A stretch of DNA of 64,000 nucleotides, taken from an uncultured Candidatus Saccharibacteria bacterium. Its GTDB lineage: Bacteria; Patescibacteriota; Minisyncoccia; Phycocordibacterales; JACNGX01. The position numbers and the translations under genes are program-made. The DNA lies in the NCBI GenBank assembly GCA_964621395.1, contig CAZULS010000002.1, positions 87,306 to 151,305 of the forward strand, in the 5' to 3' direction. This document shows, one piece after another, positions 1,508-62,140 of this stretch (the first letter of the stretch is position 1; each line of letters begins with the position of its first letter). The notes under the pieces are model-generated. The model saw only the letters and a list, made by a program, of their open reading frames with translations, made no database searches and was not told where the DNA came from.

Positions 1508-1555
1508 ATATTTTTTAAGTTTATCGTTTATAGTTAATAGTTCATCGTTTCCCAT

Positions 1556-2974: not shown

Positions 2975-3010
2975 GCGAACGATAAACTTTAAACGATAAA
3001 CGATAAAACA

Positions 3011-6274: not shown

Positions 6275-6362
6275 GGGTACGAAGTACGAATCAATACGAA
6301 CATACGAAGACAGGGCCTGGAAAAGTAATGTTCGTATGTTCGTACTCGTTCGTAGTTCGTAA
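6275..6362. repeat. A-family palindromic element GGGTACGAAGTACGAATCAATACGAACATACGAAG...TTCGTATGTTCGTACTCGTTCGTAGTTCGTAA
   Basis: Imperfect inverted repeat of TACGAA hexamer arrays. It starts 3 nt after the sufS stop and ends 5 nt before the sufU start. A near-identical copy lies at 6728..6816. Confidence 0.7.
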
Positions 6363-6366
6363 TCAT

Positions 6367-6727: not shown

Positions 6728-6816
6728 GGGTACGAAGTACGAATCAATACGAACATACGAAGACAGGGTCTGGAAAAGTAATGTTCGTATGTTCGTACTC
6801 GTTCGTAGTTCGTAAC
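6728..6816. repeat. A-family palindromic element, second copy
   Basis: Differs from 6275..6362 by one substitution. It fills the sufU-sufC spacer. Confidence 0.7.
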
Positions 6817-7570: not shown

Positions 7571-7729
7571 CCTAGCCCGTGCCGAGCCACGGTCGGCCTA
7601 GGGAACTACGAACGAGTACGAACATACGAAACGTACCTTTACTGTCATTCCTTGCTTGACCAGGAATCTACAGGGTTATATGACCCACTCACTTCTGCCT
7701 GGACGGGATGACAAAAGAGAGGGATGACA
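7571..7729. repeat. Composite repeat: family-I hairpin (GCCTAGCCCGTGCCGAGCCACGGTCGGCCTAGGG), A-left arm, B-type hairpins
   Basis: The family-I sequence recurs at 46259..46291. The B hairpins are GTCATTCCTTGCTTGACCAGGAATC and others. Confidence 0.6.
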
Positions 7730-7772
7730 ACACATAGTTTATCGTTAATCGTTTATAGTGTATCGTTTACAT

Positions 7773-10216: not shown

Positions 10217-10426
10217 GTGTGTGGGTGATTATGGATAAAACGAATTACAAATATAATACGAATATACGAATGGGTTTTATATTTGCTTCGGACTTACGAT
10301 TTTTGAGGTACCGTTATATTTTTTAGTGACATTTCTTAAAAGCGCATAACTTGAATACATGCATGTAATCAATAGAAGTACTATTGGGTATTCGTATATT
10401 CGCGTTATTCGCAATTCGTAATTACG

Positions 10427-11221: not shown

Positions 11222-11450
11222 AATAAAAAACGATTAACTATTAACGATAAACGAGCCTAAACGAGCACCTTCTTTGGGCGAGCCCAAAGAAGGTGCTCGT
11301 CGGCCACGGTAAAAATGAAAATAAGGCAGTAAAAACCTTCACGCATTATACCGCGCTACGGACGTTGCGCAAAGTATTGCGAAATGGGGAGATATGTGGC
11401 AGTATTGTTTCAGTTTCGTTGGCTCCATTCACTCAAAATATATGGGTTAT

Positions 11451-11727: not shown

Positions 11728-11917
11728 CAGGATAGAGTATACACAGGAGCTAAACGCTCCTGTTTTTTTGTGCTTGTGCACGGTGCGGCGTTTTTCTTTA
11801 GAAAAACGCCGCACCATTATATTGCATATGCACAGAATATCCCTGTTCATTGTACGAAAATCGTTATATACTTATATACCAAGGACATCATCTTCGTTAA
11901 TCGTTTATCGTTTTTCC

Positions 11918-13474: not shown

Positions 13475-13480
13475 TCCACA

Positions 13481-13720
13481 TTACGAATTGCGAATAACGC
13501 GAATATACGAATATTGCAGCTAGAAACTAAATATCTGTCATCCTGAACTTGATTCAGGATCCAGAAAAAGTGAAGATTCCGGATCAAGTCCGGAATGACA
13601 CTAAACAAGATTCTCATTTTATACGCTACGAAATATAATACGGTGTATAGAAATCGTAAGCCCGAAGCAGGCAGGTCACCCATTCGTATATTCGTATTAT
13701 AATTCGTAATTCGCATATTG
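13481..13720. repeat. Composite A/B element: A-type arms (ACGAATTGCGAATAACGCGAATATACGAAT ... ATTCGTATATTCGTATTATAATTCGTAATTCGC) enclosing B-type hairpins
   Basis: Inverted A-type arms flank GTCATCCTGAACTTGATTCAGGATC and GATTCCGGATCAAGTCCGGAATGACA. Confidence 0.6.
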
Positions 13721-13721
13721 T

Positions 13722-17203: not shown

Positions 17204-17311
17204 ATTTGAAACGATTAAACTATAAACGATTAACGATAAACGGCCTGACGGCCTGAATAACCAAAATCCACTCCAGTATACCATAGGCATCTTATGGTCC
17301 ACACAAAGACA

Positions 17312-19626: not shown

Positions 19627-19639
19627 AGGGGTATTGTAG

Positions 19640-19795
19640 CATACAATGAGAAGTTAGAAATTAGAAAATAGAAGTTAGAAAAGGTGCGCTACGCGCGCCT
19701 ACCTTGTCATTCCGCACTTGATGCGGAATCTTGCCGCGCGAAGCCTTGGCGGAGTGGGGACGCCGCGCCTACCTTGTCATTCCGGCCTCTTTATC
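19640..19795. repeat. Repeat cluster: TTAGAAGT/TTAGAAA array (family J), two B-type GTCATTCCGCACTTGATGCGGAATC copies, family-H motif GCGAAGCCTTGGCGGAGTGGGG
   Basis: Family H also occurs at 3035..3060 and, reverse-complemented, at 46524..46550. Confidence 0.55.
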
Positions 19796-25559: not shown

Positions 25560-27008
25560 ATGCTGAAAAAGACACGTATTATTGGGACCATTGGTCCGGC
25601 TTCGGAATCTCCTGCTGTGCTTACCAAGCTTATGAAGGCGGGCATGAATGTTGCGCGGTTGAATTTCTCACATGGTGATCACTCGTGGCACAAAGCGACA
25701 TATACGACCATTCGGAAAACGGCGGAGAAGTGCGGATGCACTGTGGCGATTATGCAGGATCTCATGGGTCCGAAGATTCGCATCGGAGATTTTGCGACAG
25801 AGTTTGTAACACTCAAGAAGGGCATGACGTTTACTCTGCGCACGAAAAAAGGGAAGGGGGATGAAAGTGGCGCGTATATTACGTATGAGGATTTGTATAA
25901 GGATGTGGAGAAGGGCGACACAGTACTTCTTGATGATGGGAAGGTGGCACTCATAGTTAGTGCAATAAATGGAAGTGATGTGGTGTGTAAGGTGAAAATC
26001 GGCGGGCGTATTCGCGGACGACGCACGGTGAATGTGCCGGGGGCGTATCTTTCGCTCTCTTCACTTACAAAGAAAGATAAAGAGGACTTGGTCTTGGGCG
26101 TGAAGCTTGGCGTGGATGTGGTGGCGCTTTCTTTTGTGCGTACGGCGGACGATGTGCGTGAACTCAAAAAGCTTCTGAAAAAGCATGGTTCGCAAGCGAA
26201 GATTGTTGCGAAAATTGAAACACCTGAAGCAGTGGAACATATCGTCGATATCGCTCATGAAGCGGATGCGGTAATGGTGGCGCGAGGGGATTTGGCGGTG
26301 GAGGTGCCGCGCGAGGACGTGCCGCTCATTCAAAAAGACATTGTTCGAATTTGTAATGCTTTGGGAAAGCCGGTATTTGTGGCAACACAGATGCTTGAGA
26401 CGATGATTACGGAAGCGAATCCGACGCGTGCGGAAGTGAGCGACATTGCCCATGCGATTCTCGAAGGTGCTGATGGGGTAATGCTTTCGGCAGAGACATC
26501 TGTGGGTGCCTATCCGGTGGAGGCGGTAAACGTGATGAGCCGTGTGGCGCAAAAAGTGGAAGGAAGGAGTGAGAATCGTGATATTACCCGTATGCCGCAT
26601 GTATGCAACGGACGAGAAGGGTGTGATCGAACAATCGTGGATGCGGTGAGTGAAAGTGCTGTACGTATGGCACGCACAGTGAACGCAAAGGCGATTATTG
26701 CGCTGACGGATTCGGGATTTACCGCACGTATGATTGCACGCTTTCGTCCGTCGCAAGAGATTTTTGCCGCGACACCAAATGAAATGACACTGCGACAGAT
26801 GGAACTTTCCTTTGGGTGCCATGCGCGGCGCATCGGTTCGTTTACGTATGTGGGGCAAGTACGCTCGGCGATGGAGGATATTGTGGTGAAAGAAAAAATT
26901 GCCAAAAAGGGCGATACGATTATCATTGCCGCGGGTATTCCGTTTGGAAAGGTGGGCGGTACCAATATGGTACTTGTGCACGTGGTGGGAGATGGCGCGG
27001 GGGAGTAG
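25560..27008 (+). CDS. pyk: pyruvate kinase
   Basis: TKIIGTIGPAS...NFSHGD...MVARGDLAVE...ATQMLE motifs. 482 aa. Confidence 0.9.
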   Translation: MLKKTRIIGTIGPASESPAVLTKLMKAGMNVARLNFSHGDHSWHKATYTTIRKTAEKCGCTVAIMQDLMGPKIRIGDFATEFVTLKKGMTFTLRTKKGKGDESGAYITYEDLYKDVEKGDTVLLDDGKVALIVSAINGSDVVCKVKIGGRIRGRRTVNVPGAYLSLSSLTKKDKEDLVLGVKLGVDVVALSFVRTADDVRELKKLLKKHGSQAKIVAKIETPEAVEHIVDIAHEADAVMVARGDLAVEVPREDVPLIQKDIVRICNALGKPVFVATQMLETMITEANPTRAEVSDIAHAILEGADGVMLSAETSVGAYPVEAVNVMSRVAQKVEGRSENRDITRMPHVCNGREGCDRTIVDAVSESAVRMARTVNAKAIIALTDSGFTARMIARFRPSQEIFAATPNEMTLRQMELSFGCHARRIGSFTYVGQVRSAMEDIVVKEKIAKKGDTIIIAAGIPFGKVGGTNMVLVHVVGDGAGE

Positions 27009-27068
27009 ACGAACAGCCCTAAAGCACAACAAGTTGTGCTCGGGCACGTAAACGATGAACTGTAAAAT

Positions 27069-27106
27069 AAAAAATCGGCGCGAGCTGCGCTCGCGCCGAT
27101 TTTTTA
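27069..27106 (+). terminator. Intrinsic terminator after pyk
   Basis: AAAAATCGGCGCGAGC-TGC-GCTCGCGCCGATTTTTT. Confidence 0.7.
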
Positions 27107-27122
27107 CTCCCCATTCTCTTTA

Positions 27123-27304
27123 CTGTCATCCCGCACTTGATGCGGGATCCAAGCAGACATAATTATGTAGGTAAAACTCTGGATTCCAGGGTCTTGTCAG
27201 GAATGACACATCCTAGGGTTATTCGAAAACCAAGATTGAGTTTTGGTATGAATACCAAAGCTCAACCTTGGTTTTAAGATCCCGCATCAAGTGCGGGATG
27301 ACAG
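27123..27304. repeat. Large B-family element with terminal inverted repeats CTGTCATCCCGCACTTGATGCGGGATC ... GATCCCGCATCAAGTGCGGGATGACAG and internal AAAACCAAG...CCTTGGTTTT palindrome
   Basis: 27 bp TIRs flank ~130 bp. A MITE-like organisation. Confidence 0.65.
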
Positions 27305-27435
27305 GTAATGTTGATAGTGACAAGAAAAAGCACGGCGACCGAAGAACGCTGTGCTTTTTAAATGACGCTTGCAAATAGTTAATAGATGATATAGAGTGTA
27401 TTTCTTAAAGTACTTTCAATCTAAACAAAAACGTT

Positions 27436-27636
27436 ATGCAAACAACAAAGCATGTTGGATGTATTAGTTCTGACGAAGATAAGAAAAAGAAAACAGGTAA
27501 ACTGATACCGGTTCCTTGCACCATTTGTGGGGAGGTTGTCCTGAAAGACGAAGGAGAATACGAGGCAAATAAGCAAAAAGGGATTAATCCTCTCTGTAAA
27601 GAATGTGGGCTGGATCTCTTCTTTGGAGGTAAGTAA
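27436..27636 (+). CDS. hypothetical small zinc-ribbon protein
   Basis: CTIC...CKEC cysteine pairs. 66 aa, with its own bidirectional terminator downstream. Confidence 0.4.
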   Translation: MQTTKHVGCISSDEDKKKKTGKLIPVPCTICGEVVLKDEGEYEANKQKGINPLCKECGLDLFFGGK

Positions 27637-27673: not shown

Positions 27674-27706
27674 AAAAAGACCGCGAGCGTGAGCTCGCGG
27701 TCTTTA
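27674..27706. terminator. Bidirectional intrinsic terminator (AAAAAAGACCGCGAGC-GTG-AGCTCGCGGTCTTT)
   Basis: A-run before and T-run after a perfect 13 bp stem. It lies between the convergent zinc-ribbon ORF and hisS. Confidence 0.65.
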
Positions 27707-27740
27707 TCGTTTAGCGTTTATAGTTCATCGTTCACTCACG

Positions 27741-29054
27741 TTACTTCATCCCTTTCAAATATTTCGGAAGGTTTTCGAGGGAAACTGTCTCTTGCGAGCG
27801 ATTGTCCATATTGCGGACGATAACGGTGCCGTCCATGGCTTCCTTTTGTCCGAAGATAATCGCATAGGGAGCTCCAAGCCGCTCGGCGGTGCCGAGCTGT
27901 GCACCGAGTGAGTCTTTGGAAAGTGACTGCATGATAGGGATGTTTGCCTTGCGGAGCATCTTAATGACCGACAAGCTCTTGAGCTTTGCTTCAAAGCCAA
28001 GCTGAATGAAATACACTTTCGGTTTTTTCATGATACGCGGCTTGGGAGTTTTAACGCCTTCGGTATTTAAAATGCGGTCGATACCGATTGCCGCGCCAAC
28101 GGATGGAACCGGTTTTTTGGAGCCGAGAATTTTTGCGAGTCCGTCGTAGCGTCCGCCACCGGCAACTGCTTGTGGCGCGGGCGCGCTCTCGTCTTCTTCA
28201 TCACTCGGCGGGGTTGCCTTAATCTCAAAGACGGTGTGCGAATAGTAGTCCAGGCCGCGCACCAATGTATGGTCGATACGATACACGATATCGGCAGAAT
28301 CAAGATATTCCAGTACTTCCTTGAAATGTTTTTTGGCTGCTGCGGAGAGGTGATTGAGTGATTCAGGCGCAGCTGCTTTAATCGGCTGGCACCGTTCGTC
28401 TTTACAATCGAGCACACGGAGCGGATTTGTCTTCAGACGTTGCTTGCATGTCGGGCAAATAGTGTCGGCATGTTTCTTATAGTAATTTGTGAGTGCGCGA
28501 AGATACGCCGCGCGAGACTCAGGATCACCGATGCTGTTGATCTCAACACACACATCGGAGAGCCCGATTTCTTCGAGTGCATCGACAATGGTGCGGATGA
28601 CGATTACGTCAGCGATACTTTTGGGCGTGCCGATAATTTCAAAACCGAATTGACGGAATTCACGCAGGCGCCCTTTCTGCGGATTTTCATGACGGAAGAA
28701 TGCACCGTAATTATAGAGCATGACGGGCTGGGGGAGTGATTGCATGCCGTGTTCAATGTAGGCGCGCATGATAGCGGCAGTTGCTTCAGGACGCATGACA
28801 AGGCGATCACCGCCTTTGGTCTTGAGATTGTACATCTCTTTTTCGGCGATGTCGGTATGCTCACCCACACCACGCAAAAAGACATCTTCAGATTCGAGGA
28901 TGGGTGTTTGAATCGGTTGGAAGCCGTAGTAGACGGCGACTTCTTGAATCTTTTCAAAGAGTCCTTGGTATGCGTAAAAATCCTCACCAATAATATCGCG
29001 AGTACCTTTCGGCGACTGGAGATTTTTTGAAGATTTTTTTTGTGAAGGGGACAT
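27741..29054 (-). CDS. hisS: histidyl-tRNA synthetase
   Basis: Class II aaRS motifs and the HisRS-specific N-terminal region GTRDIIGEDF. 437 aa. Confidence 0.9.
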   Translation of the reverse strand: MSPSQKKSSKNLQSPKGTRDIIGEDFYAYQGLFEKIQEVAVYYGFQPIQTPILESEDVFLRGVGEHTDIAEKEMYNLKTKGGDRLVMRPEATAAIMRAYIEHGMQSLPQPVMLYNYGAFFRHENPQKGRLREFRQFGFEIIGTPKSIADVIVIRTIVDALEEIGLSDVCVEINSIGDPESRAAYLRALTNYYKKHADTICPTCKQRLKTNPLRVLDCKDERCQPIKAAAPESLNHLSAAAKKHFKEVLEYLDSADIVYRIDHTLVRGLDYYSHTVFEIKATPPSDEEDESAPAPQAVAGGGRYDGLAKILGSKKPVPSVGAAIGIDRILNTEGVKTPKPRIMKKPKVYFIQLGFEAKLKSLSVIKMLRKANIPIMQSLSKDSLGAQLGTAERLGAPYAIIFGQKEAMDGTVIVRNMDNRSQETVSLENLPKYLKGMK

Positions 29055-29070
29055 GAAGAGAAAATTAATT

Positions 29071-29257
29071 AGAGCCTGTTCGTAATCTCATGTCGTGCGT
29101 AATGCATCATATACCGAGCGAAAATCGTGAAAAGTGTTGATGGAGTACTGTCGTACTTCGAGACACTTTAAGCGATTTACAGCCGGTATATGGCGCATTA
29201 AGCCGACAAGGACATGTTCTTCTTCGTTCAATTCCGTTGAGATTATGAACAGGCTCT
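29071..29257. mobile_element. MITE family D copy 1 (~187 bp, 20 bp perfect TIRs AGAGCCTGTTCGTAATCTCA / TGAGATTATGAACAGGCTCT)
   Basis: The internal sequence carries a second inverted repeat TATACCGAGCGAAAATCG / CGATTTACAGCCGGTATA. Tandem copy at 29325..29512, third copy at 58698..58884, degenerate inverted copy at ~49497..49725. Confidence 0.7.
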
Positions 29258-29324
29258 TAGATGACACACTCAGTATATATGAGAATACCGATTGACTGAA
29301 AGTTTTTTTTGTTCTCTGACTTTA

Positions 29325-29512
29325 AGAGCCTGTTCACAATCTCATGTCGTGCGTGACACACTCATATACCGAGCGAAAATCGTGAAAAGTGTCGAAGGAG
29401 TACTGTCGTACTTCGAGACGCTTTGAGCGATTTGCAGCCGGTATATGAGTGTGTCAGCCGGCAAGGATATATCTTTCTTTCTCCTATTCCGTTGAGATTG
29501 TGAACAGGCTCT
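29325..29512. mobile_element. MITE family D copy 2
   Basis: ~85-90% identical to copy 1, with the same TIRs AGAGCCTGTTCACAATCTCA / TGAGATTGTGAACAGGCTCT. Confidence 0.7.
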
Positions 29513-29570
29513 AAGAGGAGAAAAAAGTGAGCGCGGCGGGGCAAAGCCCCGCCGCGCTAAGTGGTAAAAT

Positions 29571-30233: not shown

Positions 30234-30381
30234 GAGAAACCAAATGAAAAATAAAAAGAAATATGATGTGTGGTTATGATAGCATAGAAAACTATAAACG
30301 ATAAACGATAAAAAATAAAAGCAAAAAGAAAAGTCGCCGTATTATTCGGCGGGTTTGTTTTTGTCTGGTATACTTGTATGT

Positions 30382-30993
30382 ATGAAAAACACTGATGTTG
30401 TCATTGTGGGTCTCGGGAACCCGGGAAAACAATATGAAAAGACGCCGCACAATGCCGGCTTTTTGGTACTTGATGCATTGCTTGGTAAGAAGGGAGAGGG
30501 TGGGTGGAAGAAAGAAAAAATGTGTGAAGGACTCATTGCGAATGTGAGTTTGAATTGTGGTGCTACCGCTTTGCTTCTGAAGCCGGAGACATTCATGAAT
30601 GAATCGGGGAGAAGCGCGAAGAAAGTTGTTGAGAATGTAGCTGACGCAGAAAACTCTCTCATCGTGGTGTATGATGACATCGATATGCCGATTGGTTCGG
30701 TGAAGATTGTGTTTGACCGCGGGAGCGGTGGACATAAAGGGGTACAGTCGATTATCGACACACTCGGCACAACACGCTTTGTTCGCGTGCGCGTGGGTGT
30801 TGCCCCCGTGGGGCTCTTTGGTGACATGAAGAAGCCAAAAGGGAGAGAGGCGGTGTCGCGCTATGTGCTTTCGCCGCTCTCGCGCCGCCGCACTCACCTC
30901 CTTGAGGCAGCGACAGACGTCGCCATTTCGGCTATTGAGAAAATTGTCTGTGAGGGGAGAGAGGCGGCGATGAATGAGGTGAACAAACGCTAA
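30382..30993 (+). CDS. pth: peptidyl-tRNA hydrolase
   Basis: VIVGLGNPGKQYEKTPHNAGF N-terminal motif. The start is at MKNTDVV. Confidence 0.85.
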   Translation: MKNTDVVIVGLGNPGKQYEKTPHNAGFLVLDALLGKKGEGGWKKEKMCEGLIANVSLNCGATALLLKPETFMNESGRSAKKVVENVADAENSLIVVYDDIDMPIGSVKIVFDRGSGGHKGVQSIIDTLGTTRFVRVRVGVAPVGLFGDMKKPKGREAVSRYVLSPLSRRRTHLLEAATDVAISAIEKIVCEGREAAMNEVNKR

Positions 30994-31057
30994 ACGATGA
31001 ACGATAAACTATAAACGCCGCGCGAGCCTTTGGCTCACGCGGAACCCAAAGCAAAAT

Positions 31058-31163
31058 TGTCATCCCGCACTTGATCCTACATTGCAAGCAATCGGATACA
31101 ATGCGGGATCTCGAGAGAGTTGTTTCATAACGTTTAGATCCCGCATCAAGTGCGGGATGACAG
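31058..31163. repeat. B-family MITE-like element (TIRs TTGTCATCCCGCACTTGAT ... GATCCCGCATCAAGTGCGGGATGACAG)
   Basis: Immediately upstream of the PBP2 start. The GTG that begins the predicted ORF at 31150 lies inside the right TIR. Confidence 0.65.
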
Positions 31164-34161: not shown

Positions 34162-34272
34162 GGGTACAAAGTACGAATATATACGAACATACGAAGATAG
34201 GGTTGTTTCGGAAAATGAATTGCAGGGTATACATTGTGTTCGTATGTTCGTACTCGTTCGTAGTTCGTAACC
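34162..34272. repeat. A-family element (GGGTACAAAGTACGAATATATACGAACATACGAAG ... TTCGTATGTTCGTACTCGTTCGTAGTTCGTAACC)
   Basis: Same architecture as 6275..6362, with a longer central spacer. Nearly identical to 36041..36152. Confidence 0.65.
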
Positions 34273-34291
34273 TGTGATATACTAATACCTA

Positions 34292-36033: not shown

Positions 36034-36040
36034 TATACTG

Positions 36041-36152
36041 GGGGTACGAAGTACGAACGTGTACGAACATACGAAGATTGAGTTGTTTCGGAAAATGAAT
36101 TGCAGGGTATACATTGTGTTCGTATGTTCGTATTTATTCGTAGTTCGTAATA
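36041..36152. repeat. A-family element, near-duplicate of 34162..34272
   Basis: GGGGGTACGAAGTACGAACGTGTACGAACATACGAAG...TTCGTATGTTCGTATTTATTCGTAGTTCGTAATAACC. Confidence 0.65.
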
Positions 36153-40564: not shown

Positions 40565-40598
40565 TTTCCTAATTTTTAATCTCCTATTCTCCTAATGT

Positions 40599-47380: not shown

Positions 47381-47599
47381 ATGGCACACGACGTTTCAGA
47401 ACAGAATACCGTGCAGGGCACCGTTTTGGAGTCGCTTCCGAATACGGAGTTTCGCGTCACGCTTGATTCGGGCGAGGAGACAATCGCCTTTTTGTCAGGA
47501 AAGATGCGGCTTCACCGTATCAAGGTGCTTGTGGGGGATCGAGTTGCTATGGTGGTTGATCCCTACGGTGGTAAAGCGCGTATCATGCGCCGTCTCTAA
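47381..47599 (+). CDS. infA: translation initiation factor IF-1
   Basis: S1-like OB fold, sequence [14 protein letters not shown]...GKMR...[10 protein letters not shown]. Confidence 0.9.
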
Positions 47600-47600
47600 T

Positions 47601-47714
47601 ATGAAAGTTAAAGCATCAGTCAAAAAAATCTGTTCGAAGTGTAAGACCGTCCGAAGAAAGGGACGTGTGTGGGTGGTGTGTGAAAATACTCGCCACAAAC
47701 AGCGCCAAGGCTAA
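47601..47714 (+). CDS. rpmJ: 50S ribosomal protein L36
   Basis: [37 protein letters not shown]. Zinc-ribbon CxxC...CxxxxH. Confidence 0.85.
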
Positions 47715-47785
47715 ATATTTTTTTAATTTCCTCATTCTTAATCTCCCATTCTATTTTCTAACTCCTAATTTCTAACTTCTAAACT

Positions 47786-48163
47786 ATGCGAATCGCAGGT
47801 ATTACCATTCCAGAAGACAAGCGTATCGAAATCGGACTCACCGCTGTATATGGTGTCGGTCGTTCTCTTGCGCACGATATTCTCGACGAAGCAAAAGTTG
47901 AGTATGGTGCAAAGCCGAAAGATCTTTCCGAAGCACAGCAGTCAGCTATTCGCGATATTGTGACGGCACTAACCATCGAAGGTGATCTCAAGCGGGAAAC
48001 GGCGTCGAATGTAAAGCGCTTGAAGGATATCCAGTGTTATCGCGGTTCACGCCACGGACAGGGTTTACCGACTCGCGGTCAGCGCACAAAGACGAATGCC
48101 CGCACACGTAAAGGTCCGCGCAAGACGATGGGTTCCGGTAAGAAAAAGGTTGAGAAGAAGTAA
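47786..48163 (+). CDS. rpsM: 30S ribosomal protein S13
   Basis: MRIAGITIPEDKRIEIGLTAVYGVGR. Preceded by the TTCTAACTCCTAATTTCTAACTTCTAAACT (family J) array. Confidence 0.9.
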   Translation: MRIAGITIPEDKRIEIGLTAVYGVGRSLAHDILDEAKVEYGAKPKDLSEAQQSAIRDIVTALTIEGDLKRETASNVKRLKDIQCYRGSRHGQGLPTRGQRTKTNARTRKGPRKTMGSGKKKVEKK

Positions 48164-48190
48164 TATTCATGCTAGCATATTGGCTTGTAT

Positions 48191-48392
48191 AGTAAGAATC
48201 TTTCTTAGTAAAAATGGCTTGTTATCGCGCCCGACATGTGAGCGAGACGACGATGCGGAGTGTAAGGTATATAGACATATGACGCACGCGAGCATCAAGT
48301 CGCAGCCACATGTCGGGCGCGAGAACTGCCAAGCAACAGCTTTTGCGTTTATTATTTTTTATTTTGCGGTTTTTACTAAGATAGATTCTTGA
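48191..48392. repeat. Family E ~200 nt long-hairpin element, copy 1 (outer arms AGTAAGAATCTTTCTTAGTAAAA / TTTTACTAAGATAGATTCTTGA; inner perfect stem GCGCCCGACATGTG / CACATGTCGGGCGC)
   Basis: It occupies almost the whole rpsM-rpsK spacer. The core AATGGCTTGTTNTCGCGCCC is shared with copy 2. Confidence 0.6.
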
Positions 48393-48396
48393 TCCT

Positions 48397-48831
48397 ATGG
48401 GAAAAAAACGTGTCGCACAAAAGAAGGGAGGTACTGTTGACGCTGGGCTCCGCGCCCGCGCTCTTTCACGTGCGCCAAAGAAAAAGGTTGCCTCCGGTAT
48501 TCTCTGTGTGGAAGCAACATACAACAACACTCGCTTGACCCTCACTGATAAGGCGGGAAAAGTCTTGGCATGGAGCTCTTCCGGTGCCCTTGGATTCAAT
48601 GGTGCCAAAAAGGGAACACCGTTTGCCGCGGCAAAGATTGGTGAAGTGATCGCCGAGAAAGCGCTTATGATGGGTATGAAGGATGTATCGGTTGTGGTGA
48701 AAGGTGTTGGCATGGGACGTGAATCAGGCATTCGAGCATTTGCCGGAAAAGGTATCGACATCACAGCAATTTCCGATCGCACACCGGTACCGCATAATGG
48801 CCCGACACCGCGTAAGCCTCGTCGTGTATAA
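48397..48831 (+). CDS. rpsK: 30S ribosomal protein S11
   Basis: GILCVEATYNNTRLTLTD...GFNGAKKGTPFAA. Confidence 0.9.
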   Translation: MGKKRVAQKKGGTVDAGLRARALSRAPKKKVASGILCVEATYNNTRLTLTDKAGKVLAWSSSGALGFNGAKKGTPFAAAKIGEVIAEKALMMGMKDVSVVVKGVGMGRESGIRAFAGKGIDITAISDRTPVPHNGPTPRKPRRV

Positions 48832-48854
48832 TCCAGTATTTCAATTTCAGTATT

Positions 48855-49487
48855 ATGATGACCAATAGCAAATGTAAAATCTGTCGCCGTGCCGGTGAGA
48901 AGCTCTTCCTGAAAGGGGAGAAGTGTTTGACTGCAAAATGTACGCTTGTGAAAAAGCCGTATACTCCCGGACTGGCACAATCACAGCGTAAGCACCGCTC
49001 GATGGTGACTGAATTCGGTCGCCAGCTTAAAGATAAGCAGAAGGTGCGCAATATGTATGGCATGCGCGAGCGTCAGTTTGTGAATTATGTGCGCGAAGCA
49101 ATGAAGAAAGCGGGTAGTCCTGCAGAGAATCTTTTCGTGCTCCTTGAATCACGCGTGGACAATGTGGTCTTCCGCAGTGGCTTTGCCAATTCACGCTCAC
49201 TTGCTCGTCAGATGGTATCGCACGGACACATTACCGTAAATGGTCGCAAGATTGATATTCCATCATACACAATGAAGAAAGGGGATGTTATCGGTGTGCG
49301 CGAAGGAAGTATGAAGAGCCCGCTCTTTACCGATCTCGGGAAGAAGCTTGAGAAGCATTCTGCGCCGGTATGGGTGAAGCTTGACCCGAAGAAGGTACAC
49401 GCTGAGGTGATTGGCGCTCCGAAACTTGAAGAAGCGACGGATGCGGGTATTGATTTGCCGACAGTGATCGGGTTCTACAGTCGATAA
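48855..49487 (+). CDS. rpsD: 30S ribosomal protein S4
   Basis: N-terminal zinc-finger-like region CKICRRAGEKLFLKGEKC and an S4 domain. Confidence 0.9.
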   Translation: MMTNSKCKICRRAGEKLFLKGEKCLTAKCTLVKKPYTPGLAQSQRKHRSMVTEFGRQLKDKQKVRNMYGMRERQFVNYVREAMKKAGSPAENLFVLLESRVDNVVFRSGFANSRSLARQMVSHGHITVNGRKIDIPSYTMKKGDVIGVREGSMKSPLFTDLGKKLEKHSAPVWVKLDPKKVHAEVIGAPKLEEATDAGIDLPTVIGFYSR

Positions 49488-49496
49488 GCTATCCAC

Positions 49497-49725
49497 AGAG
49501 CCTGAAAAAGTGTTGCCTTTTCGAGAGTTTTGTGTTACACTTAGAATCTAATCAAGATTTCAACGCAAGAGGATAAAAATCCATGTTGCTTGCCGGCTGA
49601 AATGCCCATATCCCGGCTGCAAATCGTTCAAAGCGTCTCGAAGTACGACAGTACTCCTTCAACACTTTTCACGATTTTCGCTCGAGATATGAGCATTTCA
49701 CGCTCGACATGAAATCTTGCTCAGA
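49497..49725. mobile_element. Degenerate, inverted copy of MITE family D
   Basis: CCGGCTGCAAATCGTTCAAAGCGTCTCGAAGTACGACAGTACTCCTTCAACACTTTTCACGATTTTCGCTCG is the reverse complement of the family-D core. The termini are eroded. Confidence 0.5.
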
Positions 49726-49771
49726 TCCTTGTGTACGCGAAACGTAATCGCTGTTTTTCGTTTTATTCAAA

Positions 49772-49964
49772 GAACCGGTCTCACTGAAAATGGCTTGTTC
49801 TCGCGCCCACACTGCGAGCGAACCGACGTCGCGGAGACCATAACGTACTGTTTGTACGTTATGGTTGAGCGACAAGGTGCAGCCGCAGTGTGGGCGCGAG
49901 AACGGCGCATGCGCAGCTCCGGAATAAAATCTTCTTGTTTGAAGGTTTTCAGTGAGATTGGTTC
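49772..49964. repeat. Family E long-hairpin element, copy 2 (outer arms GAACCGGTCTCACTGAAAA / TTTTCAGTGAGATTGGTTC; inner stem CTCGCGCCCACACTGCG / CGCAGTGTGGGCGCGAG)
   Basis: The arms differ from copy 1 but remain perfectly self-complementary, i.e. compensatory change. It lies in the rpsD-rpoA spacer. Confidence 0.6.
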
Positions 49965-50044
49965 TATAAGTCGTTCAACCGACCGACACACATTTCTGTG
50001 TCGGTCGCGGTGGCGTATTTTATTATATTTTAAGCCCCATTTTT

Positions 50045-51013
50045 ATGCTAGATCACAGCGTCGTCCTCCCTTCCTCCCCACGTGTCGTATCCGAAGATGC
50101 GACAAAAGGCATCTATGAGATTGATGGTCTCTACACCGGATACGGACACACTCTCGGAAATTCGCTTCGTCGAATTATTCTTTCTTCGCTTCCCGGTTTT
50201 GCTATTACGTCGGTGAAAATCGCCGGTGTTCCGCATGAATTTTCCACCATTGATGGCGTCAAAGAAGACGTGATTGCATTGTTGCTCAATCTCAAAAAAG
50301 TACGATTGGCATTTGATGGAAGTGAATCACAGACATTTACCTGCACCCTGAAGGGTCCGAAGCCGGTAACAGCCGGCGATTTGAGCGTGCCGTCTCAGGT
50401 GCGTGTACTCAATCCCGAGCAGCACATTGCCGAGCTGACCGCTAAGGGTTCGTCTCTTGAAATTGAAATCACCGTGGAGAAAGGGCTCGGCTATGTTGCC
50501 AAAGAAGTGCATGCCGGCGGGAAGAACGATGTGGGTGTGATTGCGCTTGATGCAACGTTCACTCCGATTCGCCGTGCCAACTACGAAGTGGAAAACATGC
50601 GTGTTGGTGATCGTACCGATTACAATCGTTTGCGCATGGTGATTGAAACAGACGGCACACTCACACCGCGCGAAGCACTCGAGCGTTCCATTGTGGTGAT
50701 GATTGAGCAATTGAAAGCGATTGTTGGCTTCCAGGAAGAGGAACCGGAGGAAGAAGTTGCTGATGCACCGGAAGAGGGAGCTGAGGAAGAAAAAGGCGAG
50801 ACCGATGCAGATGCTTTGAAAACGCGCATCGAGTCTCTCGAAGAGCTTTCCAGCCGTACATCCAATGCGCTGCTGGAGGCAAGTATTCGCACCGTGGGCG
50901 GACTTGTGCGCAAGAGTGAAGAAGACCTTCTTGCTCTTGAGGGCGTGGGAGATAAGAGTGTGCAGGAAATTCGTCGCGCACTCGCAAACTTCGGCTTGAC
51001 TCTGAAGCAATAA
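50045..51013 (+). CDS. rpoA: DNA-directed RNA polymerase subunit alpha
   Basis: N-terminal dimerisation domain, acidic linker and C-terminal helix-hairpin-helix (LEELSSRTSNALLEASIRTVGGL). Confidence 0.9.
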   Translation: MLDHSVVLPSSPRVVSEDATKGIYEIDGLYTGYGHTLGNSLRRIILSSLPGFAITSVKIAGVPHEFSTIDGVKEDVIALLLNLKKVRLAFDGSESQTFTCTLKGPKPVTAGDLSVPSQVRVLNPEQHIAELTAKGSSLEIEITVEKGLGYVAKEVHAGGKNDVGVIALDATFTPIRRANYEVENMRVGDRTDYNRLRMVIETDGTLTPREALERSIVVMIEQLKAIVGFQEEEPEEEVADAPEEGAEEEKGETDADALKTRIESLEELSSRTSNALLEASIRTVGGLVRKSEEDLLALEGVGDKSVQEIRRALANFGLTLKQ

Positions 51014-51023
51014 TCCGTATACT

Positions 51024-51218
51024 GGAACCCACCTCATATTAAAACGCCAGAGAAAGGACTCACGCACTTCGTGCAACGGCTTGACAGTTCTCGCACCACA
51101 TATTCGGCTGCACCTTGTCTCTCAACCGCACCGCACGAGTAGTGCGGCACGGTCTCCGAGACATCTACGCTGCGAATATGTGACACGAGAACAAGTCATT
51201 TAATATGAGGCGGGTTCC
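51024..51218. repeat. Family F ~195 nt long-hairpin element, copy 1 (outer arms GGAACCCACCTCATATTAAA / TTTAATATGAGGCGGGTTCC)
   Basis: It fills the rpoA-rplQ spacer. Internal CACATATTCGGCTGCA...CCGCACGAGTAGTGCGG...GAATATGTG. The homolog is at 57418..57600. Confidence 0.6.
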
Positions 51219-51236
51219 GGAGCCTATTCCTAATGT

Positions 51237-51587
51237 ATGAAACATCACAGCAAACATCGAACACTTGGACGCGATAATGATCAGCGTAAAGCACTTTTGA
51301 AAGGCTTGGCTGTGTCTCTTGTGCGTGATGAAAAGATTATGACTACGGAAGCAAAGGCAAAGGAGCTCCGTCCGTTTATCGAAAAGCTCATTACACGTGC
51401 ATCAAAGGGAGATGTGGCTGCACGTCGTTTGCTCGTGTCACGCGTTGGCTCTGAGATTACTGCAGAGAAGCTCATGAAGGAGATTGCTCCGCGCTACGAA
51501 AACCGCGCCGGTGGATACACCCGTATTACCAAGATTGCTCCACGCAGCGGTGACGCAAGTCCGATGGCTGTTATTGAATTTGTATAA
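51237..51587 (+). CDS. rplQ: 50S ribosomal protein L17
   Basis: [24 protein letters not shown]. Confidence 0.9.
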
Positions 51588-51589
51588 TT

Positions 51590-51934
51590 ATGGAATACAC
51601 ACTTGATGCACAAGAAAAGAGCGTAGGACGTGTTGCAACCGAAGCGGCTATGGCGCTTATGGGAAAGAACACGTCGAGTTATAAGCCGAATGTTGCTCCG
51701 GATGTATCTGTGCGTATCGTGAATGCCTCAAAGGCGAATATCTCCGAGAAGAAGAAGGGAGAGAAGACATACGAGCGCTATTCCGGATATCCGGGAGGTC
51801 TCAAGTCTGCCACAATGGGAGAGGTGATTGAGAAGAAAGGATACGGAGAAATCTTCCGCATGGCGGTAAAAGGCATGCTTCCGAAGAATAAGCTCCAGGC
51901 GGTGATGATGAAGAATCTCACGGTTGAAGAGTAG
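51590..51934 (+). CDS. rplM: 50S ribosomal protein L13
   Basis: GRVATEAAMALMGK...YERYSGYPGGLK...AVKGMLPKN. Confidence 0.85.
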   Translation: MEYTLDAQEKSVGRVATEAAMALMGKNTSSYKPNVAPDVSVRIVNASKANISEKKKGEKTYERYSGYPGGLKSATMGEVIEKKGYGEIFRMAVKGMLPKNKLQAVMMKNLTVEE

Positions 51935-51939
51935 TCAAC

Positions 51940-51975
51940 GGGTACGAAGTACGAACCAATACGAACATACGAATA
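51940..51975. repeat. A-family left half-element GGGTACGAAGTACGAACCAATACGAACATACGAATAC (solo)
   Basis: Immediately after the rplM stop. There is no matching right arm. Confidence 0.55.
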
Positions 51976-52074
51976 CAGTGTTTAAGAAGTATTCACGTGT
52001 ATCGTTTTTCATACCACAGACGACAGCAATAGTTTCAGTTTAACGTCTATAGTTTATCGTTTTTATTTACTTTC

Positions 52075-54586: not shown

Positions 54587-54827
54587 TGAGGGGTCGTCTG
54601 CCCGCGCGTGCACTGCGTATTCCATGCGCAGTGCACGCGCGGGCAAGTGATTGGATTTGAAACGAGACTTGCCAAGACCCAGCCCCACACCAATGATTTT
54701 GAGAGCTTATATTCTTGCCAGTACCGTTATGTTGCTGAGGAGAATGTTCTCTTTATGAAATCAAAAGTGTGGGGCTGGGTGACAACTTCTTTTTATCGTT
54801 AACAGTTAATCGTTTATTGTTACACTT

Positions 54828-58677: not shown

Positions 58678-58697
58678 TCGATCAATTTTTCTTTCTT

Positions 58698-58884: not shown

Positions 58885-58889
58885 TACAT

Positions 58890-62129: not shown

Positions 62130-62140
62130 ACAGAGCTCTT

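What the first reader, a model, noticed from the sequence alone, without database searches (positions are those of the whole stretch)
7735..7772. Recurrent phased TATCGTTTA / TTTATCGTT motif clusters immediately 5' of start codons (rpoD, sufT, HlyD, dnaK, rpsI, SIMPL, AhpD-like, lepB)
Two to four copies of (G)TTTATCGTT(T/A)A spaced ~10 nt apart lie within ~45 nt upstream of the ATG on the coding strand at 1527..1553 (rpoD), 7735..7772 (sufT), 11893..11917 (HlyD), 52035..52074 (rpsI), 54795..54827 (dnaK), and on the minus strand at 11225..11262 (SIMPL), 17205..17245 (AhpD-like) and 30283..30320 (lepB). Further copies follow stop codons at 2975..3010, 27703..27736 and 30990..31020. The ~10 bp phasing puts the repeats on one face of the helix, which is typical of a transcription-factor or UP-element-like site. 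The motif ends 5-12 nt before the ATG, so these genes would be leaderless or nearly so. It shares TTATC with the DnaA box but is otherwise distinct. This may be the dominant promoter/initiation architecture of the organism, or a regulon signal.
Basis: seen in the sequence. Interest (0 to 1): 0.6.

Follow-up and report, generated by a model that had tools for sequence, protein, structure and literature searches.

The report
Heptad repeat arrays at leaderless promoters
The motif is real, but it is a run of 7-base repeats (TTATCGT-like), one of several such repeat families lining gene edges in this tiny uncultured bacterium. Its copy nearest the start codon sits exactly where this organism places the -10 promoter box of mRNAs that begin at the ATG.

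Summary
**Observation.** TTTATCGTT occurs 16 times against 0.78 expected. Arrays number 12, against 0-1 in shuffles, and all are intergenic. The spacing is 7 nt, not about 10. Each array holds 3-5 contiguous heptads with consensus T-W-A-T-M-G-T.

**Placement.** Eight arrays lie in sense orientation before genes. Six of these end 6-8 nt before the ATG. Four lie in antisense orientation just after stop codons, next to terminator hairpins.

**Organism.** It is a CPR/Paceibacteria bacterium near Cand. Yonathbacteria with almost no Shine-Dalgarno sites. At least 9 genes carry TGnTAnnnT 5-8 nt before the ATG, and this is conserved at pth in three relatives.

**Best reading (about 0.4).** The ATG-proximal heptad (TATCGT) is the -10 element of a leaderless promoter.

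**Wider context.**
- Other heptad families (TTCGTA, TTCTAAC) follow the same outward orientation rule.
- In close relatives the family at a given site is often swapped, A for C or another, while position and gap persist.

**Rivals.** An RNA-level translation leader, a heptad-binding protein site, or a neutral slippage repeat.

**Closest precedent.** TAACTGA heptamer repeats before start codons in Beggiatoaceae.

No transcript data were available, so the mechanism is inferred.

The parts
1521..1548 (+). A-family array: TTATCGT TTATAGT TAATAGT TCATCGT. A 7-nt gap (TTCCCAT) separates it from the rpoD ATG at 1556.
   Evidence: Position and gap are conserved in relatives L202-204, L206 and L207.
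2979..3006 (-). A-family array antisense to rpoD. It lies 4 nt after the rpoD stop (2972-2974), between the stop and a bidirectional terminator hairpin.
   Evidence: Conserved in L202-204 and L206, degenerate in L207, absent in L205.
7739..7766 (+). A-family array: TTATCGT TAATCGT TTATAGT GTATCGT. A 6-nt gap separates it from the sufT ATG at 7773. This is the finding's own coordinates.
   Evidence: An independent gene call starts sufT at this ATG.
11230..11250 (-). A-family array of 3 units. An 8-nt gap separates it from the SIMPL ATG at 11221. A strong hairpin lies directly upstream.
11891..11911 (+). A-family array of 3 units. A 6-nt gap separates it from the HlyD-family ATG at 11918.
17211..17239 (-). 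A-family array of 4 units with one 8-nt interval. A 7-nt gap separates it from the ATG at 17203 of a CMD/AhpD-like gene.
27052..27071 (-). Weak A-family array antisense to pyk. It lies 44 nt after the pyk stop and directly after a bidirectional terminator hairpin.
27704..27731 (+). A-family array antisense to hisS. It lies 9 nt from the hisS stop (27741-27743) and directly after a terminator hairpin.
   Evidence: Absent in L212. L214 has only a single TTTATAG.
30291..30311 (-). A-family array of 3 units over the -35/spacer region of the lepB promoter.
   Evidence: In relatives a different heptad family occupies this place.
30276..30284 (-). Extended -10 box TGcTATCAT of lepB. The ATG seen here by eye is part of TATGC, not a start codon.
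   Evidence: TATGCTATCAT is conserved in L212, L213 and L214 while the flanking sequence diverges.
30987..31014 (-). A-family array antisense to pth. Its last unit overlaps the pth stop codon, and a hairpin lies directly upstream on its own strand.
   Evidence: Absent in L212. L213 and L214 have C-family antisense heptads here instead.
52033..52060 (+). A-family array in the rplM-rpsI gap. A 14-nt gap separates it from the rpsI ATG at 52075.
54793..54820 (+). A-family array: TTATCGT TAACAGT TAATCGT TTATTGT. A 7-nt gap separates it from the dnaK ATG at 54828.
30366..30384 (+). Reference leaderless promoter: TGgTATACT, 7 nt, then the pth ATG at 30382 (corrected start).
   Evidence: Conserved as TGaTATAAT-6-ATG (L212), TGaTATACT-7-ATG (L213) and TGgTATACT-7-ATG (L214). 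An independent 203-aa gene call agrees.
19627..19681 (-). C-family array (TTCTAAC x5) followed in register by TGcTACAAT, 6 nt, then the ATG of an FtsX-like gene.
47718..47785 (+). C-family array of about 8 heptads. It fills the rpmJ-rpsM gap to 3 nt from the ATG.
40565..40598 (+). C-family array filling the 34-nt NUDIX-alaS gap. Relative L214 has a 4-unit A array with a 7-nt gap at this site.
6276..6363 (.). B-family palindrome: ACGA-type arm, spacer, TCGT-type arm. Further copies lie at 6728-6815, 34165-34275 and 36040-36150.
   Evidence: The fold z-score is about -6.

Best explanation
The A array is a run of tandem -10-like heptads (T + TATCGT, TATAGT or TATTGT) lying in promoter DNA.

**Proposed mechanism.**
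- The copy nearest the gene places a TAnnnT hexamer at -12/-13 relative to the A of the ATG.
- The primary sigma-70-type RNA polymerase would use it as the -10 box.
- Transcription would then start at, or within a nucleotide or two of, the ATG, giving a leaderless mRNA.
- This suits an organism that has essentially no Shine-Dalgarno sites.
- The upstream copies fill the spacer and -35 zone. Four heptads put TTATCG 16 bp upstream of the proximal hexamer.

**Wider class.** The A array belongs to a lineage-wide class of oriented heptad arrays that pad the outer edges of intergenic regions. These arrays arise and are replaced quickly, most likely by slippage or recombination.

**Copies after stop codons.** These are the same element on the far side of bidirectional terminators. 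They either fire antisense or are inert.

**Shown.** The arrays, their period, enrichment, orientation and gaps. The organism's extended -10 leaderless signature and its conservation. The turnover of families between relatives.

**Inferred.** That RNA polymerase uses the proximal heptad, where transcripts start, and what the upstream units and the 3' copies do.
For: **Geometry.**
- Six of eight 5' arrays end 6-8 nt before an ATG start, and four rpoD orthologues have a 7-nt gap.
- B-family arrays next to starts have gaps of 3-35 nt.
- The proximal hexamer starts at -12/-13. Independent extended -10 boxes in this window start at -12 to -14.

**Leaderless signature.**
- TGnTAnnnT-N5-8-ATG occurs 17 times against 7.7 +/- 2.5, and at least 9 hits are at gene starts.
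- The pth box is kept in L212, L213 and L214 while the 6-7 nt after it differ.
- The box of the gene at 34292 is kept in L212 and L214.
- SD-like words are depleted upstream of starts: 2 of 56 genes against 10.6% background.

**Array content and position.**
- Unit positions matching A(-11) and T(-7) are near-invariant or invariant (37 and 39 of 39).
- B and C arrays sit directly upstream of extended -10 boxes (FtsX-like gene, 34142-, 34292+, 62314+). The lepB A array also sits upstream of TGcTATCAT. Arrays at these sites therefore lie in promoter DNA, not in the transcript made from that box.
- The C family also places TAnnnT at -13/-14 (TAACTT, TATTCT, TAATCT).

**Relatives.**
- Yonathbacteria lack the array but keep a -10-like box just before the rpoD ATG, for example TGaTACATc-6-ATG in L208.

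**Structure.**
- A arrays stay unpaired in predicted folds, so they are not hairpin arms.
Against: - No transcript 5' ends are available.
- A arrays lack the TG of the extended -10 and have only a weak -35 match (TTATCG, 3 of 6).
- The position matching T(-12) is the most variable in the unit (T in 26 of 39). Invariant G at -8 and T at -13 are not explained by -10 recognition.
- The consensus promoter scan is not enriched over shuffles (24 against 25.9).
- Four of twelve arrays face into the 3' ends of genes with no gene to serve. B arrays at 3' ends are not followed by -10 boxes.
- Several array-bearing genes (rpoD after dnaG, rpsI after rplM, sufT after sufC, dnaK after grpE) are usually inside operons. 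The arrays may therefore be transcribed from upstream.
- C-like heptads lie in the pyk leader, downstream of a conserved TATAAT, in L214.
- C arrays end 3 nt from the ATG and fill short intercistronic gaps.
- A and C arrays replace each other at alaS, rpoD and lepB. This fits interchangeable leaders or neutral filler as well as it fits promoters.
Confidence: 0.4

Rival explanations
1. RNA-level translation leader. The arrays are transcribed and act as unstructured, G-poor, pyrimidine-rich landing pads. They would work through ribosomal protein S1, a cold-shock-type protein or the ribosome itself. This would allow SD-independent initiation at internal or leadered cistrons.
For: - The organism has almost no SD sites.
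- Arrays precede genes that are normally operon-internal: rpsI after rplM, rpsM after rpmJ, rpoD after dnaG, sufT after sufC.
- C arrays fill 34-68-nt intercistronic gaps to 3 nt from the ATG.
- The pyk leader downstream of a conserved TATAAT consists of C-like heptads in L214.
- A arrays are predicted to be unpaired.
- A and C are interchangeable at the same ATG.
- The same proposal was made for TAACTGA repeats (PMC4679880).
Against: - At lepB, the FtsX-like gene, 34142-, 34292+ and 62314+, arrays lie upstream of extended -10 boxes whose predicted start is at or near the ATG. They would not be in that transcript.
- There is no complementarity to a canonical anti-SD.
- The idea does not explain the antisense copies after stop codons.
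- The tight 6-8-nt gap equals the gap between -10 box and transcription start seen elsewhere in this genome.
Confidence: 0.22
2. Neutral or selfish repeat. The heptad arrays are slippage-generated microsatellite-like DNA, or half-sites of REP/MITE-like palindromes, that accumulate at the A-rich and T-rich flanks of bidirectional terminators. Closeness to the ATG reflects compact intergenic space. The -10-like geometry arises because arrays are seeded from existing -10 boxes or T-tracts.
For: - Families turn over fast between close relatives at the same site. At alaS the genes are 92.6% identical at nucleotide level, yet one has C and the other A. The lepB site has four different heptads in four genomes. 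The 3' arrays of hisS and pth are absent in L212.
- There is a universal outward orientation about the intergenic centre, whatever the gene orientation.
- Seven to nine of twelve A arrays follow a hairpin on their own strand.
- B arrays are dispersed palindromic repeats with 28-nt identical copies.
- TAATCGT and TTATCGT microsatellites occur in unrelated metagenomes with GC from 0.21 to 0.69.
- Heptanucleotide repeats are the commonest long simple-sequence repeats in bacteria (Mrazek 2007, as cited in PMC4679880).
Against: - Units are imperfect but non-randomly so. Variation is confined to positions 2 and 5, while G6 and T7 are invariant in 39 of 39 units.
- The A-family gap to the ATG is tight (6-8 nt) and family-specific (C: 3 nt). 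It persists when families are swapped.
- The rpoD 5' and 3' arrays persist in five relatives while the adjacent hairpins are replaced.
- All eight 5' arrays are in sense orientation.
Confidence: 0.22
3. Operator for a heptad-binding DNA-binding protein. Candidates are a ribbon-helix-helix protein like the omega repressor or a winged-helix protein like ToxR. It would coat 3-5 contiguous heptads over core promoters and at gene ends, acting as a global repressor, activator or boundary factor.
For: - The arrays are contiguous 7-bp units with a defined degenerate consensus.
- Both direct and inverted arrangements occur.
- The arrays overlap the core promoter zone.
- The outward-pointing orientation at both gene starts and gene ends is natural for a DNA-level polar element.
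- Precedents from my own knowledge are the omega heptads WATCACW of pSM19035. The TTTTGAT heptads of the ctxAB promoter appear in the title and abstract listed.
Against: - The genes served have no common function.
- The heptad family at a given promoter differs among close relatives. That would rewire regulation of housekeeping genes at very short evolutionary distance.
- No candidate binding protein was identified or searched for.
Confidence: 0.1
4. Arms of RNA or DNA hairpins that bring stop and start codons together. The purpose would be terminator extension, RNase III processing or translational coupling.
For: - B/B pairs in this window fold across the whole gap with z about -6.
- Inverted arrays in L008, L024, L044 and L077 span stop-arm-hairpin-arm-ATG.
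- rpoD is flanked by A arrays in inverted orientation.
Against: - The gaps that hold A arrays are not unusually structured (z -1.8, -1.8 and 0.0), and the A arrays stay unpaired.
- Their neighbours are B-antisense arrays, which are poorly complementary.
- The rpoD 5' and 3' arrays show no compensatory changes across relatives.
Confidence: 0.04

Closest known systems
TAACTGA heptamer direct repeats of marine Beggiatoaceae, some Cyanobacteria and Bacteroidetes (MacGregor 2015, PMC4679880)
   Same: Both are 2-6 tandem heptamers in intergenic DNA. Both lie in forward orientation within a few nucleotides of start codons that lack Shine-Dalgarno sites. Both sit before unrelated genes, including ribosomal protein genes, and the function of neither has been tested.
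   Different: - The heptad sequence differs, although the C family read as TAACTTC resembles TAACTGA.
- Here several families coexist.
- Units are imperfect with fixed variable positions.
- Reverse-orientation copies sit after stop codons.
- An independent leaderless promoter signature points to a DNA-level reading. The paper proposed only RNA-level readings.
Leaderless-gene promoters: a -10 box (TAnnnT, often TGn-extended) 6-8 nt before the start codon, as in Actinobacteria and Deinococcus. GeneMarkS-2 classes such genomes as group C (PMC6028130, PMC3160421; seen only as titles and abstracts, plus my own knowledge).
   Same: A TAnnnT hexamer starts at -12/-13 from an ATG. SD sites are absent. 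The geometry matches the extended -10 genes of this same window.
   Different: The -10-like hexamer is repeated 3-5 times head to tail at 7-bp intervals and lacks the TG extension. As far as I know, no such tandem arrangement has been described for leaderless promoters.
Heptad operators: omega repressor sites (WATCACW)n of pSM19035 and TTTTGAT repeats of the Vibrio cholerae ctxAB promoter
   Same: Both are contiguous 7-bp units overlapping a promoter, in direct or inverted arrangement.
   Different: Those are bound by known proteins at a few loci. Here there are 12 sites per 64 kb at housekeeping genes, families are swapped between relatives, and no binding protein is known.
Intergenic palindromic repeats (REP/BIME; Neisseria Correia elements with outward promoters and terminator or RNase III hairpins)
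   Same: Both are restricted to intergenic DNA and show outward-facing symmetry about the intergenic centre. Both are dispersed in many copies and can supply promoter-like ends next to genes. The B family fits this well.
   Different: A arrays are single-armed tandem repeats with no partner arm. They show no predicted hairpin and no target-site duplication or terminal inverted repeat.
Long simple-sequence repeats and cyanobacterial STRR heptanucleotide repeats
   Same: Both have a heptanucleotide period, an intergenic location, lineage-specific unit sequences and rapid turnover.
   Different: These arrays are short (3-5 units) and imperfect with conserved positions. They hold a fixed register to start codons. 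No copy-number polymorphism was seen, although only identical contigs were available.

Membership tests
Sigma-70-type promoter driving a leaderless mRNA | A -10 hexamer TAnnnT lies about 6-8 nt upstream of the transcription start, which here is the A of the ATG. | tested here: met
   The proximal hexamer starts at -12/-13 at sufT, HlyD and dnaK (TATCGT, TATCGT, TATTGT). At rpoD (CATCGT) and AhpD (AATCGT) only A-11 and T-7 are kept. The rpoD orthologues have TATCGT-7-ATG.
Sigma-70-type promoter driving a leaderless mRNA | A -35 element (TTGACA-like) lies 16-18 bp upstream, or a TGn extension is present. | tested here: inconclusive
   There is no TGn. Unit 1 gives TTATCG (3 of 6) at a 16-bp spacing in four-unit arrays. 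The promoter scan is not enriched over shuffles.
Sigma-70-type promoter driving a leaderless mRNA | A mapped primary 5' end lies at the start codon. | not testable with these tools
   No transcriptome data are available.
TAACTGA-type heptamer direct repeats (MacGregor 2015) | Tandem direct heptamers of 2-6 copies lie in forward orientation within a few nt of start codons that lack an RBS. | tested here: met
   compared with PMC4679880.
TAACTGA-type heptamer direct repeats (MacGregor 2015) | The unit sequence is TAACTGA. | tested here: not met
   The unit here is T-W-A-T-M-G-T.
Shine-Dalgarno or other rRNA-pairing ribosome-binding site | The site is complementary to the 3' tail of 16S rRNA. | tested here: inconclusive
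   There is no match to the canonical anti-SD CCUCC, by inspection. No 16S gene is present in the window or in any fetched locus, so this organism's own tail could not be read.
DnaA box cluster | 9-mers of the form TTATNCACA. | tested here: not met
   There are two matches in 64 kb, neither at an array.
UP element or helically phased transcription-factor sites | Phasing of about 10-11 bp, placing sites on one face of the helix. | tested here: not met
   The period is 7. Lags 10 and 11 give 0 and 1 regions.
Heptad operators of ribbon-helix-helix repressors (omega type) | Two or more contiguous 7-bp units overlap a promoter. | tested here: met
Heptad operators of ribbon-helix-helix repressors (omega type) | A cognate heptad-binding protein is present. 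| not tested
   No search for candidate binding proteins was made.
REP/BIME/Correia-like palindromic intergenic repeats | Two complementary arms form a hairpin. | tested here: not met
   A arrays are unpaired and their gaps fold with z from -1.8 to 0.0. The B family does meet this feature, with z about -6.
Phase-variable simple-sequence repeats | Perfect repeats with copy-number polymorphism among strains. | tested here: inconclusive
   Units are imperfect. The only same-species contigs (L001, L210, L211) are 100% identical. Relatives show duplication, loss and family swaps.
Intrinsic terminator U-tract | A GC-rich hairpin is followed directly by a T-rich run on the same strand. | tested here: inconclusive
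   Seven to nine of twelve arrays follow a hairpin, including all four 3' copies. However, the arrays extend 21-35 nt and several have no adjacent hairpin.

The most novel reading that the evidence does not exclude
Paceibacteria of this lineage may mark the outer edges of nearly every intergenic region with short, oriented, interchangeable heptad cassettes. The cassettes would point outward toward the neighbouring gene, whether its start or its end is adjacent.

- At gene starts a cassette would supply the core promoter or leader for SD-less, often leaderless, expression, with a gap to the ATG that is specific to its family.
- Cassettes would be exchanged between families within species-level time.

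This would imply a dedicated generating or recognising mechanism, such as a polymerase or recombination bias, or a heptad-reading protein. It would be a gene-boundary code not described in any bacterium.
Probability: 0.15. Interest if true: 0.8.

Novelty: new variant of a known kind. Interest (0 to 1): 0.55.

Why it matters
Almost nothing is known about how candidate-phyla-radiation (CPR) bacteria start transcription and translation. They are uncultured and appear to lack Shine-Dalgarno sites.

This window gives a concrete, testable picture:
- Many genes have an extended -10 box 5-8 nt before the ATG, which implies leaderless mRNAs.
- Another set has the -10 position occupied by the last unit of a heptad array.

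If confirmed, this would have three consequences:
- Gene-start calling in CPR genomes would improve. Several longest-ORF starts in this window are wrong, for example pth, the tRNA-synthetase gene at 62314, and the genes at 23954 and 34142.
- The decade-old puzzle of heptamer repeats before start codons in Beggiatoaceae and Cyanobacteria would gain a DNA-level hypothesis.
- Core expression signals would be shown to be replaced wholesale between close relatives.

If the arrays turn out to be neutral, they still document an unusual, oriented microsatellite dynamic in reduced genomes.

Tried and rejected
- **About 10-nt phasing or UP element.** Rejected. The period is 7.
- **DnaA boxes.** Rejected.
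- **CIRCE/HrcA control of dnaK.** No CIRCE half-site is present.
- **Known RNA families.** Only two tRNAs were found in the window. A separate 190-nt repeat has no Rfam match.
- **Hairpin-arm or 5'-3' pairing model for A arrays.** Rejected by folding and by the lack of compensatory change.
- **Antisense extended -10 boxes behind 3' arrays.** None found.
- **Conservation of the TATCGT array across Paceibacteria.** The PWM finds essentially none in 1.35 Mb of 80 dnaK loci. The family is confined to the closest relatives.
- **Metagenome scan for the pattern.** It returned 120 or more unrelated microsatellite-like arrays with GC from 0.21 to 0.69. This was not useful for the lineage.
- **16S 3' tail.** No rRNA gene lies in any held sequence.
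- **Consensus promoter scan.** Not enriched over shuffles, so uninformative.
- **Regulon reading.** Rejected because of mixed gene functions and family swaps.
- **Literature on CPR promoters, anti-SD or heptad repeats.** Nothing specific was found.
- **Source organism's name.** Not recoverable.
Full report
**1. What is there**

The region 7735-7772 reads AGTTTATCGTTAATCGTTTATAGTGTATCGTTTACAT ATG. It parses as four contiguous heptads, TTATCGT TAATCGT TTATAGT GTATCGT, followed by 6 nt and then the sufT ATG at 7773.

- TTTATCGTT occurs 16 times in the window, against 0.78 expected. No shuffle out of 100 reached 16.
- A position weight matrix built from 39 units, scored over three units in register, finds 12 arrays. 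Ten Markov shuffles give 0-1.
- The unit consensus is T(37/39) T/A/C(26/9/4) A(37) T(35) C/A(27/11) G(39) T(39). Variation is therefore confined to two positions.
- Thirty-one of 33 unit-to-unit intervals are exactly 7 nt.
- A blind self-similarity test gives 14 regions at lag 7, and 11 at the harmonic lag 14, against 0.4 expected. Every other lag from 4 to 15 gives 0-3. Tandem Repeats Finder agrees.

**2. Where the arrays sit**

Eight arrays are in sense orientation upstream of genes. Gene identities are confirmed as follows: rpoD, SIMPL, HlyD-family, CMD/AhpD-like (weak), lepB and rpsI by Pfam; sufT by an independent gene call; dnaK by homology.

| Gene | Gap from last unit to ATG (nt) |
|---|---|
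| rpoD | 7 |
| sufT | 6 |
| HlyD | 6 |
| AhpD-like | 7 |
| dnaK | 7 |
| SIMPL | 8 |
| rpsI | 14 |

The eighth array, at lepB, ends 4 nt before the conserved TATGCTATCAT that holds an extended -10 box, not before the lepB ATG (see section 4).

Four arrays lie just after stop codons, always antisense to the gene they follow. Each lies between the stop codon and a strong hairpin.

| Gene followed | Distance from stop |
|---|---|
| rpoD | 4 nt |
| pth | overlaps the stop codon |
| hisS | 9 nt |
| pyk | 44 nt |

**3. The organism and its expression signals**

- DnaK and RpoD place the window in CPR/Patescibacteria, class Paceibacteria. The nearest named relatives are Candidatus Yonathbacteria, at 73-74% RpoD identity. 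Gene order matches theirs.
- SD-like words lie at -20..-4 of only 2 of 56 genes, against 10.6% background.
- The pattern TGnTAnnnT-N5-8-ATG occurs 17 times, against 7.7 +/- 2.5 expected.
- At least nine of these hits are at gene starts: the FtsX-like gene at 19626-, 21398+, 23954+, pth at 30382+, 34142-, 34292+, 52735+, 53142+, and the class-I tRNA synthetase gene at 62314+.
- The pth box is conserved across relatives while the discriminator differs. It reads TGgTATACT-7-ATG (window and L214), TGaTATAAT-6-ATG (L212) and TGaTATACT-7-ATG (L213).
- An independent gene call gives the same 203-aa Pth.
- Leaderless, or nearly leaderless, transcription from extended -10 promoters is therefore a well-supported inference for this organism.

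**4. How the A array relates to that signature**

- Aligned on the ATG, the last A-family hexamer (TATCGT, TATTGT, CATCGT or AATCGT) starts at -12/-13. The extended -10 hexamers start at -12 to -14.
- The near-invariant and invariant unit positions correspond to A(-11) and T(-7).
- Four heptads span about -35 to -7, and they place TTATCG 16 bp upstream of the proximal hexamer.
- At lepB the sequence TATGCTATCAT is conserved in L212, L213 and L214 while its flanks diverge. It reads as TGcTATCAT, an extended -10 box. The A array there therefore covers the -35/spacer zone of a leadered gene.
- B-family arrays sit directly upstream of the extended -10 boxes at 34142-, 34292+ and 62314+. A C-family array does the same at the FtsX-like gene at 19626-.
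- At these sites the arrays are promoter DNA, not part of the transcript made from that box.

**5. The A array is one member of a wider class**

Upstream regions show at least two more families:
- Family B has TTCGTA-type units at intervals of 7-9 nt.
- Family C has TTCTAAC or CTCCTAA units at 7-nt intervals.

An orientation rule holds across families:
- In the 50 nt upstream of starts, the sense strand holds TCGT 50 times and ACGA 10 times (p = 1.6e-7).
- In the 50 nt after stops, it holds ACGA 39 times and TCGT 8 times (p = 5.5e-6).
- Coding sequence holds 226 and 207.
- Restated, in co-directional, convergent and divergent gaps alike, the plus strand reads ACGA-type arrays on the left and TCGT-type arrays on the right.

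The families differ in structure:
- B arrays often form inverted pairs that fold across the whole gap, with z from -6.0 to -6.8. They include 28-nt identical copies at four sites. B is therefore a dispersed palindromic repeat.
- Gaps holding A arrays are not unusually structured (z -1.8, -1.8 and 0.0), and the A arrays stay unpaired.
- C arrays end 3 nt from the ATG and fill short gaps such as rpmJ-rpsM and NUDIX-alaS. They still place a TAnnnT hexamer at -13/-14.

**6. Comparison with relatives**

- In 80 Paceibacteria dnaK loci (1.35 Mb, at most 77% DnaK identity) the A-family matrix finds essentially nothing.
- Several of those genomes carry other heptads in the same kind of place. They are often arranged as stop, array, central hairpin, inverted array, ATG.
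- Among close relatives (RpoD 83-93% identical), the rpoD 5' array keeps TTATCGT plus 7 nt plus ATG in L202-204, L206 and L207. It is often duplicated, with a C-like segment between the two copies.
- L205 has a C array next to the ATG and the A array further upstream.
- The antisense array after the rpoD stop persists in most of these relatives, while the hairpin beside it is replaced.

Elsewhere turnover is fast:

| Site | This window | Relatives |
|---|---|---|
| alaS upstream | C array | L214 has a four-unit A array with a 7-nt gap, although the genes are 92.6% identical at nucleotide level |
| lepB promoter upstream zone | A array | A different heptad in each of L212, L213 and L214 |
| hisS 3' | A array | Absent in L212; a single TTTATAG in L214 |
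| pth 3' | A array | Absent in L212; C-type heptads in L213 and L214 |

What persists is position, orientation and the family-specific gap, not the sequence family.

**7. Interpretation**

- I favour, at about 0.4, that the ATG-proximal heptad is the -10 element of a promoter for a leaderless mRNA. The upstream units would be promoter padding that arises and turns over by slippage or recombination.
- The main rival, at about 0.22, is an RNA-level SD-independent leader. Many array-bearing genes are normally operon-internal, and C-like heptads lie in the pyk leader, downstream of a conserved TATAAT, in L214.
- An equal rival, also at about 0.22, is neutral repeat DNA seeded at terminator flanks.
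- A sequence-specific regulator is less likely (about 0.1), given the family swaps at housekeeping promoters.
- The hairpin-arm model is rejected for the A family.
- The 3' copies remain unexplained by any start-related function. They may be antisense promoters or inert.
- No transcript data were available, so the mechanism is an inference from geometry and conservation.

**8. Relation to known systems**

- The closest precedent is the TAACTGA heptamer repeats immediately upstream of start codons in marine Beggiatoaceae and some Cyanobacteria and Bacteroidetes. Their function is also unknown (PMC4679880).
- The literature searches I ran found no report of such arrays, or of promoter architecture, for CPR bacteria.
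- I class this as a new variant of a known kind.

Noticed in passing
window 19626-, 21398+, 23954+, 30382+, 34142-, 34292+, 52735+, 53142+, 62314+: Extended -10 boxes (TGnTAnnnT) lie 5-8 nt before the ATG, implying leaderless mRNAs. Several longest-ORF starts are therefore wrong. The pth gene starts at 30382, not 30355. The tRNA-synthetase gene starts at 62314, not 62263. Two further genes start at 23954 and 34142.
   Followed up: yes
window 6276-6363, 6728-6815, 34165-34275, 36040-36150; also 13475-13721 and 10217-10426: A dispersed palindromic repeat with arms made of ACGA/TCGT-type 7-9-nt units (family B). It folds across whole intergenic gaps with z about -6. Segments of 28 nt are identical at four sites. 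It flanks sufU on both sides.
   Followed up: partly
window 29069-29260, 29325-29515, 58693-58886, 49537-49709 (reverse); L214 17902-18097: A repeat of about 190 nt, beginning agagcctgttc...ccgagcgaaaatcgtgaaaagtg...ggagtactgtcgtacttcgagac...gcagccggtatatg, is present in four copies. Two are in tandem upstream of hisS, and one sits at a different place in a relative. It has no Rfam match. It could be an unknown RNA or a mobile element.
   Followed up: partly
window e.g. 1416-1440, 1478-1505, 7640-7665, 27118-27150, 27275-27310, 31045-31075, 62140-62215: REP-like palindromes of the form GTCATYCCGSACTTGATSCGGRATC (...GCGGGATGACA / ...CAGGAATGACA) recur in many intergenic regions. A further shared 35-nt unit, ACAGGGTTATATRACCCACTCACTTCTGCCTGGA, lies upstream of both rpoD and sufT.
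   Followed up: no
window 47381-52485: The infA-rpmJ-rpsM-rpsK-rpsD-rpoA-rplQ-rplM-rpsI cluster is interrupted by unusually long gaps of 233, 557, 223 and 140 nt. These gaps hold repeats, including a shared structured segment around 48230-48370 and 49790-49950.
   Followed up: no
window 27436-27636 (+): A small ORF of 66 aa has two CxxC pairs, resembling a zinc ribbon. It lies between pyk and hisS and has its own terminator hairpin. It is absent at this place in L212 and L214.
   Followed up: no
L008 6030-6170 and 7130-7275; L024 6570-6700; L044 7850-8000; L077 4800-4920 and 7770-7885; L010 4954-4996 and 7045-7091: Other Paceibacteria fill the gaps between co-directional genes with one long palindrome: stop codon, heptad array, AT-rich central hairpin, inverted heptad array, ATG. 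The heptads are lineage-specific (TTTAGCG, AGATTTA, AATTTCC, AGGATTA, AGTATTT). In L010 the two arrays flank dnaK itself.
   Followed up: partly
L156, L167, L162, L122, L178 (metagenome contigs, GC 0.43-0.69): In unrelated, higher-GC organisms, TAATCGT or TTATCGT heptad arrays lie just upstream of a canonical GGAGG-type ribosome-binding site and start codon. Heptad arrays before genes are therefore not confined to SD-less lineages.
   Followed up: no
window coding strands (whole window): The coding strand is purine-rich. GC skew is positive in every 4-kb window (+0.02 to +0.21) and most genes lie on the + strand. Long spurious ORFs appear antisense to real genes, for example 26061-27047(-), which lies inside pyk.
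   Followed up: no
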